NCBI RefSeq assembly: GCF_054482525.1
Contig: NZ_CM137006.1
Direction: 5' to 3' (one strand)
DNA length: 64,000 nt
This document shows positions 54,101 through 57,100 of the stretch, one piece after another. Position numbers: made by a program. Position 1 is the stretch's first letter, and every line of letters begins with the position of its first letter.

Positions 54101-57100
54101 CAGCCGACCAGGCGCGGACGGCATCACGGATTTTTTCGTGGCCTGGCACCTGTTTTGTTTGAGAACGATTTATCACCGCAGTCGGGCTAAATCCGCTAGT
54201 CTGTTGGTATGTAAGTGGTTGCATAATTGACTCCTTTAGTTTGAATTGACTGTTAAGTTGATTGCTTATTGTTAAAGAGCGTGAAATGGAAATTTAAGCT
54301 GCGTTCTTTTCGGTGTGTGGAAACAACTTCGGAAGATCCGGGCGAATCTGGTATGCCTTCACTACTCCACCAGTAGCCGTAACAATGCTGCCGACATGTT
54401 CAGGGGATACCTTTGCTTTGTTGTGAAGCCACTTATAGACGGCCTGCTGTGAAACTTCGCAGGCAGCGCCCAGTTTCTTTTGTGAACCAACGATATTGAT
54501 CGCTGTTTTGATAGCTGGATTCATAACAACCTCCGTGGTTAATTTGAATCAAGATTAAAACTATGGTTGTTTTTAGTCAACAACCATTTTCGTTTGATGG
54601 AATAAAACCTTGGTTGTACATTTGGACTATGAAAACAACACTCTCAGAAAGACTTAAAGAAGCCAGATTAGCGCGAGGCCTTACACAAAAGGCGCTTGGG
54701 GATTTGGTCGGGGTTAGCCAAGCTGCTATTCAGAAAATCGAAACAGGGAAAGCTAACCAAACAACTAAAATCGTGGAGATCGCGAACGCTTTGGGTGTGC
54801 GCGCAGAATGGTTATCTTCTGGCGTTGGAAATATGTCAGACAGTACAGTGCAACCAATACAATCAACTGTCAGCCATTCCAAATACTTTAAGATTGACGT
54901 TCTTGATATAGAAGTGAGTGCCGGGCCGGGAGTCATCAACCGTGAATTTGTAGAAGTTCTACGCTCGGTTGAGTACTCGTTTGACGATGCTCGTCACATG
55001 TTCGATGGCAGGAAGGCGGAAAATATCCGCATCATTAACGTGCGTGGTGACAGCATGTCAGGAACGATCGAACCAGGTGATCTGCTGTTCGTTGATATCA
55101 CGGTTAAATCTTTCGACGGTGATGGTATCTATGCGTTTCTGTACGACGACACAGCCCATGTAAAGCGCCTGCAAATGATGAAAGATAAGCTACTGGTTAT
55201 CTCTGATAACAAGAGCTACTCACCGTGGGACCCGATCGAGAAAGACGAGATGAACCGGGTGTTCATTTTCGGGAAGGTTATTGGCAGTATGCCGCAGACG
55301 TATAGGAAACACGGATAATCAGCTGCGTGCTGATGAGGCTTTTGGGTAATGCGCTGAAAGAATTCTTTATAAAAATAACATTACGGGAAAGGCAAAAATG
55401 AGTGATAAAAAACTTATAAAAAAATCAAATAACTGTGTAGATGCATATGCTGATGCATTTGGATATTCATCTTTTGGGGAAGATGACGATCGCTTAGGCT
55501 CCATATCTTTCTTTCAGCATGTTACAGAATGGGGCGCTGATGGTAGTAATGACACTGAAAACGTAAAGTACAACATTGCAACAATTCGCATGACGGAAGA
55601 TTTAATGCTTAAACTCGCTGACTTTATTCGCGATCAGCATGATAGAGCTAAAACCAATAAGTCATAATATTAACAATGAAACACGGTTATTACGAAGCTC
55701 CAAACCTAACTGAAAAGCTTGAACAAGCGGCAAGATCATCATCTTTGCACACTGCAGCATTTTCTCAATCAGCTGGTATGTCTGGCGGTAATGTACCTAT
55801 GCTACAATCAAGTGGTAGCGGTGGCTCTGGGAGTAATAATGTGCTTGAATCGAAAGTTGCAAAGCTTGAGTCTGATGTGTCCTATATCCGACGTGACGTT
55901 GATGAGCTTAAGACAGATGTCAAATCTATCGACAGAAACATGATCGCTGTTCTGGAGCGACTCGATTCAATAAAAGATTCACTAGCCAAAAAACCCTCCA
56001 TCGATGCTGTCGATAGAAAGATTTCAGACGCAAAGCTTGCGGTATTGCTTGGTGTTCCAGCAATCATCGCTGCAGGAACAGGTCTTTATAAGCTATCAAT
56101 GTACTTTTTTCTTTAGTGCTTAAGAAACTGCTCGCCACCTTGCATTACGCAAAGCGATTTTTCATTCCCTATTACCCTTTCTTATCCATATAAACCCGGC
56201 CCCAGTGCCGGGTTTTCTTTTGCCTCCCCTCATCACACAAACCGTTCAAAAAACCACCACGACCTCGCTTCAGTTATCGCTATGCGATGCAAGTCACAAA
56301 ATAAATCCATCTTAAATACAACCAGTTATATCTAAAACAACCAATAAAACAACTTTTGTTGTTGACGATAAAACAACTATGGTTTTAAATGAATTCATCG
56401 CAACAACACAACGATACGGCAATCACCTGATTCACCGTTGCGATGACCGCTTAGATCCGCAGCTTGAATTTCAGCAGGCTCCGGGGAGTGCGAGGGGTGA
56501 AGCGGACGCGTGAACGTCGGTGTGACCAGCTGAAATCAACTCAACACTTCATACCTCAGTCGCTTCAACGAGGCGACTTAGTTATGACAACCGGCGGCCA
56601 TCCACCGCCTGAATACGCGCAGAAGTCTCTATATGTTCAGCAGCCCAGCTTACGGGCAGGAGTTTTTATGGTTCATCAACATTACGGAACGCAGACCGTT
56701 AATCGAGGTGCGGTCATGCCAGGAATGCTGGTCAAACACAAAGATGGTACCTGGACTGCATCAGCTAATTTACGCGGACGGCTTTATCTGCATCGCGGCA
56801 TCGAGCGCACTTATACCCGTGACTTGCTCGTGGAAGTTTTTCTCGACGGGCGCGGCAACGGTCTGAATCACTAATCCCCTTTCCTGTTTACCTAATCAGC
56901 CTGGCATTTCGCGGGCGATATTTTCACAGCCATTTTCAGGAGTTCAGCCATGAACGCTTATTACATTCAGGATCGTCTTGAGGCTCAGAGCTGGGCGCGT
57001 CACTACCAGCAGATCGCCCATGAAGAGAAAGAGGCAGAACTGGCAGACGACATGGAAAAAGGCCTGCCCCAGCACCTGTTTGAATCGCTATGCATCGATC

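What the first reader, a model, noticed from the sequence alone, without database searches (positions are those of the whole stretch)
55320..56230. Uncharacterised two-gene cassette in the rexAB slot, co-oriented with the cI-like repressor
Directly after the cI-like repressor, on the same strand and closed by its own terminator (56193..56222), are two ORFs with no resemblance to RexA/RexB: an acidic 89-aa protein and a 146-aa protein with a Ser/Gly linker, a heptad coiled coil and a single C-terminal transmembrane anchor. The cassette is visibly more AT-rich than the flanking phage genes. In lambdoid phages this position is the classic home of lysogen-expressed exclusion or abortive-infection systems (lambda rexAB and similar), so it is a strong candidate for an undescribed anti-phage system, with the tail-anchored protein as a membrane effector and the small acidic protein as partner or sensor. 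The function is inferred from position and architecture only.
Basis: partly seen in the sequence, partly recalled or inferred. Interest (0 to 1): 0.8.

Follow-up and report, generated by a model that had tools for sequence, protein, structure and literature searches.

The report
Uncharacterised two-gene cassette replacing rexAB
A lambda-like prophage carries, exactly where lambda keeps its rexAB phage-exclusion genes, an unstudied pair of genes (a small soluble protein and a membrane-anchored coiled-coil protein) that belongs to a widespread, mix-and-match family and is a good but untested candidate for a new anti-phage system.

Summary
After the cI repressor (54629..55318) come ORF-A (89 aa, 55398..55667) and ORF-B (146 aa, 55676..56116), then a strong terminator (56192..56222). 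All of this lies between OR-like and OL-like operator repeats. Both genes are real: dN/dS is 0.08 and 0.24, and 200 of 5426 E. coli genomes carry them. Neither matches Pfam, NCBIfam, PADLOC, RexA, RexB or SieA. New evidence supports the positional argument. E. coli prophages with the identical cI protein carry other contents in this same slot: true RexA/RexB, PADLOC candidates PDC-M63 or PDC-S42, a lipoprotein, or nothing. In P22-like phages the same pair follows mnt, where P22 has sieA. ORF-B belongs to an Enterobacterales family with a conserved coiled coil and C-terminal anchor. It is always preceded by a tightly coupled partner from at least four unrelated families. Its N-terminal peptide tracks the partner. 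A conserved internal Shine-Dalgarno plus ATG/GTG suggests a second, short isoform. The most likely reading is a lysogen-expressed, Rex-like sensor plus membrane-effector exclusion or abortive-infection module. The function is untested. Interest is moderate to high, as a new variant of a known kind.

The parts
54555..54590 (.). OR-like operator region between cro and cI. It contains the palindrome ATGGTTGTTTTTAGTCAACAACCAT.
   Evidence: An inverted repeat matches the sites at 56346-56388 (I2 and I8). The palindrome was also seen.
54629..55318 (+). cI-like repressor (HTH plus S24 peptidase). The reading frame is open from 54563.
   Evidence: phrog_4 at 5e-73 and phrog_6201 at 2.5e-46. RefSeq relatives are annotated 'S24 family peptidase', WP_000858975.1.
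55319..55397 (+). cI to ORF-A spacer of 79 nt, with no terminator and no convincing promoter. This implies read-through from the cI promoters.
   Evidence: The promoter and terminator scan found nothing here. Sequence read.
55398..55667 (+). ORF-A: an 89-aa acidic soluble protein with a predicted beta-beta-beta-alpha fold. It is the proposed specificity or sensor subunit.
55676..56116 (+). ORF-B long form: a 146-aa tail-anchored coiled-coil protein. Its ATG lies 8 nt after the ORF-A stop and has no Shine-Dalgarno, which suggests translational coupling.
   Evidence: phrog_3556 at 4.3e-54. There are 108 homologous clusters in Enterobacterales. dN/dS is 0.24. Gaps to the upstream ORF range from -20 to +29 nt across 76 loci.
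55676..55774 (+). Partner-specific N-terminal region of ORF-B (residues 1-33, motif MKHxYYExPNLxEKLExAAxSSSL).
   Evidence: It co-occurs 16 of 16 times with ORF-A-type partners. It stays 55-76% identical when the coiled coil and anchor have diverged to 27-45% identity. It falls to about 22% when the partner is unrelated.
55775..55840 (+). Gly/Ser-rich linker that also encodes an internal Shine-Dalgarno (GGGAG at 55829-55833).
   Evidence: Alignment A1. GGAG or GAGG lies within 18 nt of the internal start in 46 of 48 distinct homologues, against 27.7 +/- 3.1 expected from Gly codon usage.
55841..56116 (+). Putative short isoform of ORF-B (91 aa: coiled coil plus anchor) starting at GTG 55841. 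Residues 56-112 form the coiled coil and residues 119-140 (56030-56095) form the transmembrane anchor.
   Evidence: The codon at this position is ATG in 43 homologues and GTG in 5, and nothing else. Gene callers often call only this short form (L012-14).
56192..56222 (+). Intrinsic terminator closing the cI / ORF-A / ORF-B unit, analogous in position to lambda t_imm.
   Evidence: Fold dG -15.1 kcal/mol, z -4.2.
56344..56388 (.). OL-like operators: two 17-nt repeats (ATAAAACAACTTTTGTT and ATAAAACAACTATGGTT) 24 nt apart, overlapping a pL-like TTGACG promoter element.
   Evidence: Direct repeat D4 and inverted repeats I2 and I8 to the OR region. Sequence read.

Best explanation
The cassette is an optional cargo module ('moron') of the prophage immunity region.

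**Expression (inferred).** It is transcribed in the lysogen together with cI and ended by its own terminator, as lambda rexAB is.

**What it most likely does (inferred).** It probably protects the lysogen against other phages by a Rex-like two-component mechanism.
- ORF-A is a small cytoplasmic beta3-alpha protein. It is made in coupled stoichiometry with full-length ORF-B and is held on ORF-B's matching N-terminal peptide. Together these would form the specificity or sensor part.
- The conserved coiled coil and C-terminal membrane anchor of ORF-B would form the effector. On sensing an infecting phage it would oligomerise in the inner membrane and collapse membrane integrity or potential. That aborts the infection.
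- A second, short isoform (coiled coil plus anchor only) would be made from a conserved internal ribosome-binding site. It would set the threshold or give self-immunity. This parallels the extra rexB expression from pLIT in lambda and the S105/S107 holin pair.

**Shown here.** The gene structure, the position between cI and OL, allelism with rexAB and with other defence candidates, the modular partner and N-terminus architecture, purifying selection, and conservation of the internal SD/start motif.

**Inferred only.** Co-transcription with cI, binding of A to the N-terminus of B, the existence of two isoforms, membrane damage, and anti-phage activity itself.
For: **Position**
- cI, ORF-A and ORF-B are co-oriented between OR-like and OL-like operator repeats, with no terminator before 56192.
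- The slot is allelic. Prophages with the identical cI protein and 96-99% identical flanks carry RexA/RexB (PADLOC 3.5e-115 and 2.1e-55), PDC-M63A/B, PDC-S42, a lipoprotein or nothing at the same place.
- A second lysogen-expressed slot holds the same pair. It follows mnt in Salmonella phage UPF_BP1 and in Leclercia and Serratia P22-like prophages, where P22 has orf59a and sieA.
- Across 76 IMG/VR loci, ORF-B homologues nearly always have a tightly coupled upstream ORF. At least 62 have a co-oriented cI-like or Mnt repressor in front of that ORF, from many immunity types.

**Architecture**
- The layout is typical of immune systems with a variable sensor and a constant effector. There are at least four unrelated partner families: phrog_4231, phrog_5893-like, phrog_4293 and phrog_12039.
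- The N-terminus of B follows the partner rather than the coiled coil and anchor.

**Evolution**
- Between two E. coli alleles the flanks are 97-100% identical, whereas the cassette is only 63-82% identical. Both genes are nevertheless under purifying selection.

**Topology and isoforms**
- ORF-B has one C-terminal transmembrane segment and no signal peptide, so its bulk is cytoplasmic. This fits cytoplasmic sensing better than a periplasmic block.
- The internal SD plus ATG/GTG is conserved in 46 of 48 distinct coding sequences.

**Other**
- The phage has its own holin, endolysin and Rz cassette 10 kb away.
- The literature already treats the cI-N interval as a mosaic hotspot that holds rexAB and bstA (PMC8585504).
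Against: - No experiment and no homology links either protein to defence. PADLOC, Pfam, NCBIfam, PDB sequence searches and fold searches gave nothing functional.
- Guilt by position is not proof. The same slot also holds a lipoprotein, is often empty, and morons can serve other purposes.
- AF2 on an A-linker-B(1-100) fusion gave pLDDT 55 and a disordered B N-terminus. The proposed A-B contact therefore has no structural support, although that alignment had only 7 sequences.
- The enrichment of the internal start motif rests on related sequences, and Gly codons are G-rich anyway.
- Co-inheritance of whole cassettes explains part of the partner/N-terminus association. For the Cys-rich partner family the tracking is not clear.
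- The cassette could already be described in a paper not readable here (Brenes and Laub 2025).
Confidence: 0.5

Rival explanations
1. Superinfection exclusion at the entry step, like SieA. The membrane-anchored ORF-B, with ORF-A, would block DNA translocation of incoming phages across the inner membrane without killing the cell.
For: In P22-like phages the pair occupies exactly the orf59a-sieA position after mnt. ORF-B is an inner-membrane protein by prediction. The weak best PDB profile hit is to the trimeric coiled coil of the P22 tail needle gp26 (E 0.0028). That hit is probably only coiled-coil composition.
Against: Only about 6 residues follow the transmembrane segment, so almost nothing is exposed to the periplasm, where ejection proteins act. 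ORF-A has no signal peptide or hydrophobic segment, so it is cytoplasmic. There is no similarity to SieA.
Confidence: 0.15
2. A module serving the prophage itself rather than defence. It could be a toxin-antitoxin-like addiction pair, with the membrane protein as toxin and the acidic protein as antidote. It could instead modulate the lysis-lysogeny switch, induction or lysis timing, as XhlA-like holin accessories, lambda RexAB in the switch, or 434 Hex do.
For: The architecture is coiled coil plus C-terminal anchor. Some close relatives have a true XhlA-type C-terminus (P0102-P0105; Pfam XhlA best 2.8e-05 in one member). XhlA belongs to a lysis cassette in Bacillus PBSX (my own knowledge, not tested here). 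The two genes are tightly coupled, with a small acidic first product. The dual-start motif recalls holin/antiholin pairs. 434 Hex, encoded with the repressor, affects RecA-mediated induction (PMC3564112, listed).
Against: The cassette sits in the lysogenic transcript, not the late operon. The phage has a complete holin, endolysin and spanin set under Q control. The window protein itself does not reach Pfam XhlA significance (E 0.35). The cassette is dispensable, since isogenic prophages lack it. Diversification of partners is easier to explain by an external arms race.
Confidence: 0.15
3. Lysogenic conversion unrelated to phages. The pair would alter host envelope physiology or stress tolerance, in the way lambda bor and lom affect host traits.
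For: It is a lysogen-expressed moron with a membrane protein. The same slot can hold a lipoprotein (phrog_3135). The cassette is common in STEC O26/O111-type strains.
Against: Neither product is exported, as there is no signal peptide. The slot-mates that can be identified are defence or defence-candidate systems. The modular sensor-like diversification has no obvious host-physiology rationale.
Confidence: 0.1

Closest known systems
Lambda RexA/RexB abortive-infection system
   Same: The genomic slot is the same: between cI and OL, co-oriented with cI and ended by a terminator. It is literally allelic in prophages with the identical cI. Both have a two-gene layout with a soluble first product and a membrane second product. 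Both may produce extra membrane component on its own: pLIT-driven rexB in lambda, and the internal start here (RexB-excess effect cited in PMC8585504).
   Different: There is no sequence similarity. ORF-A is 89 aa against RexA at about 280 aa. ORF-B has one C-terminal anchor and a long cytoplasmic coiled coil, whereas RexB is a polytopic protein (4 TM, from my own knowledge). The partner genes are exchangeable among at least four families.
P22 SieA superinfection exclusion
   Same: In P22-like phages the cassette lies after mnt, in the place of orf59a-sieA. Both are lysogen-expressed and both products are inner-membrane proteins.
   Different: There is no similarity. SieA acts alone (PMC10461980), while this is an obligate pair. 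ORF-B has almost no periplasmic exposure.
XhlA family (Pfam PF10779; PBSX lysis-cassette membrane protein)
   Same: Both are short proteins with an N-terminal coiled coil and a C-terminal transmembrane segment. Close relatives of ORF-B carry a bona fide XhlA-type C-terminus fused to the same N-terminus and coiled-coil start. There are weak PHROG 'hemolysin' hits (phrog_1193 at 0.0029, phrog_937 at 0.01).
   Different: The window protein does not reach Pfam significance (E 0.35). It lies in the immunity region rather than the lysis cassette. It has an extra partner-specific N-terminal extension and an upstream partner gene.
Repressor-adjacent prophage defences: BstA (Salmonella BTP1) and mycobacteriophage Sbash gp30/gp31
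   Same: These are cargo immediately downstream of the prophage repressor, expressed in the lysogen, and abortive-infection type. Sbash is also a soluble plus membrane pair (PMC8585504; PMC6426596, listed).
   Different: The proteins are unrelated. BstA is a single DNA-binding protein. No self-immunity element has been looked for here.
Lambda S105/S107 dual-start holin/antiholin
   Same: One gene would give two membrane-protein isoforms through alternative starts, if the internal SD/start is used.
   Different: The two starts are 55 codons apart rather than 2. There is no holin homology. The gene is not in the late operon.

Membership tests
RexAB (lambda) | First gene is a RexA homologue. | tested here: not met
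   ORF-A has no PADLOC RexA hit. BLASTP against a real RexA from the allelic prophage gives E 0.68.
RexAB (lambda) | Second gene is a RexB homologue (polytopic membrane protein). | tested here: not met
   There is no PADLOC RexB hit. BLASTP gives E 4.4. ORF-B has only one hydrophobic segment.
RexAB (lambda) | Located between cI and OL/pL, co-oriented with cI, and ended by a terminator. | tested here: met
   The slot is allelic with rexAB in prophages with the identical cI.
RexAB (lambda) | Expressed from the repressor promoters in lysogens, and excludes T4 rII and other phages by membrane depolarisation. | not testable with these tools
   This needs RNA and plating experiments. Only the absence of an intervening terminator or promoter is shown.
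SieA (P22) | Sequence homology to SieA. | tested here: not met
   BLASTP gives E 1.7. There is no PHROG or Pfam link.
SieA (P22) | Encoded between mnt and gene 16 of P22-like phages. | tested here: met
   This holds for homologues of the pair in UPF_BP1, Leclercia and Serratia prophages, compared with the P22 map. In the window itself the pair sits in the cI slot instead.
XhlA (PF10779) | Significant match to the Pfam XhlA model. | tested here: not met
   E is 0.35 for the window protein. Only 1 of 23 aligned relatives reaches E <= 0.001, and that one is a C-terminal swap variant.
XhlA (PF10779) | Located in a phage lysis cassette next to the holin and endolysin. | tested here: not met
   The lysis cassette is at 43815..45041 on the other strand. 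The pair is in the immunity region.
Any catalogued anti-phage system (PADLOC-DB v2.0.0) | HMM match of either protein, or of the alternative partner proteins. | tested here: not met
   Searches gave only coiled-coil noise (E >= 0.006) for ORF-B and nothing for ORF-A or six partner proteins.
Type II-like toxin-antitoxin pair | Recognisable toxin or antitoxin domain, or a DNA-binding antitoxin. | tested here: not met
   There are no Pfam or NCBIfam domains. The ORF-A fold resembles COMM, Pur-alpha/PC4 and DUF3467 at low Z. Toxicity and neutralisation were not testable.
Family defined here: partner + tail-anchored coiled-coil cassette (phrog_3556 type) | Conserved coiled coil plus C-terminal anchor. 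Gly-rich linker with an internal SD/start. Variable N-terminus. Tightly coupled upstream partner ORF. | tested here: met

The most novel reading that the evidence does not exclude
The cassette would represent a previously unnamed, Enterobacterales-wide family of modular prophage immune systems. A constant tail-anchored coiled-coil membrane effector would be produced as two isoforms from one gene by internal translation initiation. It would be wired through an exchangeable N-terminal docking peptide to any of at least four unrelated small cytoplasmic sensor proteins. The whole unit would move between the classic lysogen-expressed slots: after cI in lambdoid phages and after mnt in P22-like phages.
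Probability: 0.3. Interest if true: 0.8.

Novelty: new variant of a known kind. Interest (0 to 1): 0.62.

Why it matters
If the pair is an anti-phage system, it adds a compact (0.8 kb), very common prophage-borne defence. It is found in about 4% of complete E. coli genomes, including STEC O26/O111 lineages, and relatives occur in Salmonella, Klebsiella, Citrobacter, Enterobacter, Pantoea and Serratia.

Its parts list is unusually easy to dissect. It has a swappable sensor, a docking peptide, a coiled-coil effector and possibly an isoform-based threshold.

It would also give a natural comparison set for the 60-year-old Rex problem, because isogenic prophages differ only in whether this slot holds rexAB, this pair, other candidates or nothing.

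On the practical side, such cassettes affect phage-therapy host range and prophage competition.

If it turns out not to be defensive, the conserved internal start and the partner-specific N-terminus still describe an unrecognised class of tail-anchored phage membrane proteins related to XhlA.

Tried and rejected
- **Phage DNA search.** Megablast of the cassette against 50,697 phage records found no match. Only tblastn found UPF_BP1.
- **Family libraries.** Pfam, NCBIfam and PADLOC gave no informative hit for either protein or for the six alternative partners.
- **PDB sequence profiles.** These gave only generic coiled-coil matches and one insignificant hit for ORF-A.
- **Fold search of the ORF-A model.** The hits were low-Z COMM, Pur-alpha/PC4 and DUF3467 resemblances. 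I do not regard these as functional assignments. A PC4-like ssDNA-binding role is unlikely for an acidic protein.
- **AF2 of an artificial A-linker-B(1-100) fusion.** pLDDT was 55, which is uninformative about A-B binding.
- **Promoter scan.** No promoter was found in the cI-A spacer. There was one weak site inside the 3' end of ORF-A (55639-55668, 9 of 12), but this is fewer sites than in shuffled sequence, so I do not claim it.
- **Rfam.** Nothing was found in 54000-57500.
- **Lysis-component idea.** Rejected, because the prophage has its own Q-dependent holin, endolysin and Rz genes.
- **Literature.** There were no hits for the protein accessions or PHROG ids. There was nothing in the DefensePredictor supplements. 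Keyword searches found nothing relevant. Brenes and Laub 2025 could not be opened.
- **Global partner/N-terminus correlation.** It is weak (Spearman 0.14, Mantel 1 of 2000), so I rely on the discordant cases instead.
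Full report
**1. What is in the sequence**

The window holds a complete lambdoid prophage of about 48 kb, roughly 13.6-61.6 kb, integrated next to icd. Its immunity region reads as follows:
- P (51971..52672, - strand)
- O (52669..53688, - strand)
- a YdaT/cII-position gene (53685..54224, - strand)
- cro (54294..54524, - strand)
- an OR-like palindrome at 54555-54590
- a cI-like HTH/S24 repressor (+ strand, open from 54563, probable start 54629, end 55318)
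- ORF-A (55398..55667)
- ORF-B (55676..56116)
- an intrinsic terminator (stem 56192..56215 plus U tract; dG -15.1 kcal/mol, z -4.2)
- two OL-like 17-nt operator repeats at 56344-56388 that are inverted copies of the OR sequence
- kil, gam, bet and exo

The cassette therefore lies inside the immunity region between cI and OL, as rexAB does in lambda.

The 79-nt cI-A spacer has neither a terminator nor a convincing promoter. Read-through from the cI promoters is therefore the simplest expectation, but this is inferred.

Cassette GC is 0.408, against 0.466 for cI and 0.52 downstream. This is the 18.5th percentile of windows in the prophage. It is AT-rich, but not extremely so.

**2. The two proteins**

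ORF-A:
- It has 89 aa and a pI of 4.98.
- It has no Pfam, NCBIfam or PADLOC match.
- It belongs to phrog_4231, of unknown function.
- Its family is narrow: 15 clusters at 90% identity, and 10 clusters at 50% identity among 1.84 billion proteins.
- AF2 with 24 sequences gives pLDDT 82.9 and a three-stranded sheet followed by a long helix.
- These are small dimerising or nucleic-acid-binding folds. At these scores they give no functional assignment.

ORF-B (146 aa) has four parts:
- a hydrophilic N-terminal region
- a Gly/Ser linker
- eight regular heptads, with 14 of 16 a/d positions hydrophobic
- one hydrophobic segment at residues 119-140, followed by six residues

It has no signal peptide. 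[quoted passage not shown] It matches phrog_3556, of unknown function. Otherwise it gives only coiled-coil noise.

Neither protein resembles RexA, RexB or SieA.

**3. Are they real genes?**

Yes, on three counts:
- The cassette is found once per genome in 200 of 5426 complete E. coli genomes: 49 at 95% identity or more and 151 at 80-90%.
- The two allele groups differ by dS of 0.6-1.7 but have dN/dS of 0.08 (A) and 0.24 (B). Within B, dN/dS is 0.48 for the N-terminus, 0.08 for the coiled coil and 0.17 for the anchor.
- The flanks of the two alleles are 97-100% identical, whereas the cassette is only 63-82% identical. Old, diverged alleles have therefore been recombined into one immunity backbone.

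**4. The slot**

I searched cI-to-kil (54700-56750) against E. coli genomes. Many prophages have 96-99% identical flanks but different contents between them. With the identical cI protein WP_000858975.1, the slot holds one of these:
- nothing (L107)
- true RexA/RexB (L105; PADLOC 3.5e-115 and 2.1e-55)
- PDC-M63A/B (L104)
- this pair

With closely related cI proteins it holds:
- PDC-S42 (L106)
- a lipoprotein of phrog_3135 (L108)

This shows directly that the cassette is allelic with rexAB and with two catalogued defence candidates.

The published view agrees. The cI-N interval is described as a mosaic hotspot that houses rexAB and bstA (PMC8585504).

**5. A second slot**

In Salmonella phage UPF_BP1 (Lederbergvirus) the same pair follows mnt and precedes gene 16. 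ORF-A there is 76% identical. ORF-B is 45% identical overall, and its N-terminus is conserved. P22 has orf59a and sieA in that place (sieA-orf59a-mnt adjacency also in PMC10461980). Leclercia and Serratia P22-like prophages show the same arrangement.

A third recurrent place is a moron position near DUF6246 and the tape-measure genes in Pantoea and Raoultella prophages.

**6. The wider family**

The C-terminal 90 residues of ORF-B are 50-83% identical in over 100 protein clusters. These come from Escherichia, Salmonella, Klebsiella, Citrobacter, Enterobacter, Pantoea, Erwinia, Serratia and Dickeya. The N-terminal 30-75 residues vary.

In 76 IMG/VR loci, almost every homologue has an upstream ORF at a distance of -20 to +29 nt. 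These partners fall into at least four unrelated families:

| Partner family | Size | Loci |
|---|---|---|
| phrog_5893-like | 136-160 aa | 33 |
| ORF-A type (phrog_4231) | 84-111 aa | 16 |
| Cys-rich type (phrog_4293) | 119 aa | 14 |
| phrog_12039 type | 84 aa | 10 |

None of them is in PADLOC.

Upstream of the partner, at least 62 loci have a co-oriented cI-like or Mnt repressor of many immunity types (examples). Some others have an unknown 224-aa gene (phrog_791) there instead.

The N-terminus of ORF-B follows the partner:
- All 16 ORF-A-type partners pair with the MKHxYYExPNL N-terminus.
- Where the partner is ORF-A-like but the coiled coil and anchor have diverged to 27-45% identity, the N-terminus stays 55-76% identical. 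One such case has been swapped for an XhlA-type C-terminus.
- In 159 locus pairs with unrelated partners but at least 65% identical coiled coil and anchor, the N-termini are at background, with a median of 22%.
- For the Cys-rich family this tracking is not clear.

I read this as a docking peptide for the partner. That reading is an inference, because an AF2 fusion model was uninformative.

**7. An internal start**

The linker is encoded so that GGAGG-like sequence lies 4-10 nt before the residue that opens the coiled coil. That residue is always ATG (43 cases) or GTG (5 cases). GGAG or GAGG occurs within 18 nt upstream in 46 of 48 distinct coding sequences. The expectation when the Gly codons are redrawn from usage elsewhere in the same genes is 27.7 +/- 3.1, with a maximum of 38 in 2000 draws.

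In the window the motif is GGGAG (55829-55833), then 7 nt, then GTG (55841). Gene callers frequently annotate only this 90-93-aa form.

The long-form ATG (55676) has no Shine-Dalgarno and lies 8 nt after the ORF-A stop, which suggests translational coupling to ORF-A. Two isoforms are therefore plausible:
- a long one made one-for-one with ORF-A
- a short coiled-coil-plus-anchor form made independently

This is a sequence-based inference. The homologues are related to one another, so the statistic overstates independence.

**8. Interpretation**

The best-supported reading is a lysogen-expressed, Rex-like two-component exclusion or abortive-infection module. ORF-A plus the N-terminus of ORF-B would act as a cytoplasmic specificity unit, and the coiled coil and anchor would act as the membrane effector. 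The short isoform would modulate the effector, by analogy with the RexB-excess effect in lambda (cited) and with dual-start holins.

I put this at about 0.5. Most of that weight is on 'anti-phage function'. Less is on the specific membrane-collapse mechanism.

The alternatives are:
- an entry block like SieA (0.15), disfavoured by the near absence of periplasmic exposure
- a self-serving addiction, switch or lysis-timing module related to XhlA-like proteins (0.15), disfavoured by the location, by dispensability, and by the presence of a full lysis cassette at 43815-45041
- phage-unrelated lysogenic conversion (0.1)

**9. Comparison with known systems and novelty**

In function and position the closest system is RexAB. 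By membership it fails both homology criteria. It is not SieA. The window protein is not a Pfam XhlA member, although relatives with a swapped C-terminus are.

Nothing in PADLOC v2.0.0, Pfam, NCBIfam, the DefensePredictor supplements or the searchable literature names it. One relevant paper could not be read.

I therefore rate it a new variant of a known kind: prophage repressor-adjacent two-gene exclusion modules. Its function is unproven.

Interest is 0.62. The allelism with rexAB, the modular sensor/effector layout and the probable isoform control make it an attractive and easily testable candidate. However, uncharacterised defence candidates are now numerous, and no activity has been shown.

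Noticed in passing
window 55829-55843; homologues in L018-L092: A conserved internal Shine-Dalgarno (GGAGG-like, encoded by the Gly linker) lies 4-10 nt before an invariant ATG/GTG at the start of the coiled coil. This suggests a second, short isoform of ORF-B. Many database entries annotate only this short form.
   Followed up: partly
L104 1001-2403; L105 999-2302; L106 993-1934; L108 1149-1529; L107 (empty): The cI-OL slot of this phage lineage is a cargo hotspot. With the same or nearly the same cI it holds RexA/RexB, PDC-M63A/B, PDC-S42, a phrog_3135 lipoprotein (weak Cor-like N-terminus) or nothing.
   Followed up: yes
L009-L011 6474-6854; L108 1149-1529: The same 126-aa lipoprotein (phrog_3135) occurs as a third gene right after the pair in Citrobacter prophages and alone in the slot in an E. 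coli prophage. It could be an independent surface-exclusion gene.
   Followed up: no
P0102-P0105; L103 4270-4689: Some relatives keep the N-terminus and the start of the coiled coil but carry an XhlA-type C-terminal membrane segment. This indicates module shuffling between this family and Pfam XhlA proteins.
   Followed up: partly
L001 and L109 (E. coli TD225-C4, NZ_CP035860.1 2825085-2844229): In this strain the 99.9%-identical cassette sits in a defective, e14-like element of about 19 kb at icd. The element has no structural or lysis genes. It carries McrC plus an AAA ATPase (McrBC-like), a NADAR protein with a PRTase-like protein, and a DGQHR-domain gene. This makes it a defence-laden prophage remnant.
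   Followed up: partly
window 56389-56668: No N-like antiterminator ORF lies between the OL/pL-like region and kil. The roughly 290-nt leader has no Rfam match. The long ORF 56464..56874 is only kil (residues 60-136) with an upstream extension.
   Followed up: partly
window 47668-51604 (- strand): The nin region resembles DLP12. By my recognition of the translations, it holds an EmrE-like SMR transporter (51272-51604), a 508-aa serine recombinase (49491-51017), a YbcL/PEBP-like secreted protein (48475-49026) and an AraC-like gene (47668-48465). GC drops to 0.29-0.31 around 50.9-51.3 kb.
   Followed up: no
L006 6411-6614; L007 6403-6627; L009 6886-7110; L012 5294-5500: In Klebsiella, Citrobacter and Salmonella prophages a small convergent ORF (67-74 aa, opposite strand) directly follows the cassette. 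No ORF of 40 aa or more lies on the - strand between 56117 and 56340 in the window.
   Followed up: no
window 55639-55668: The only sigma-70-like match in 54200-57000 lies at the 3' end of ORF-A, just upstream of ORF-B (ATGATA-18-CATAAT, 9 of 12). Its position recalls lambda pLIT inside rexA. It is statistically unsupported, with fewer sites than in shuffled sequence.
   Followed up: no
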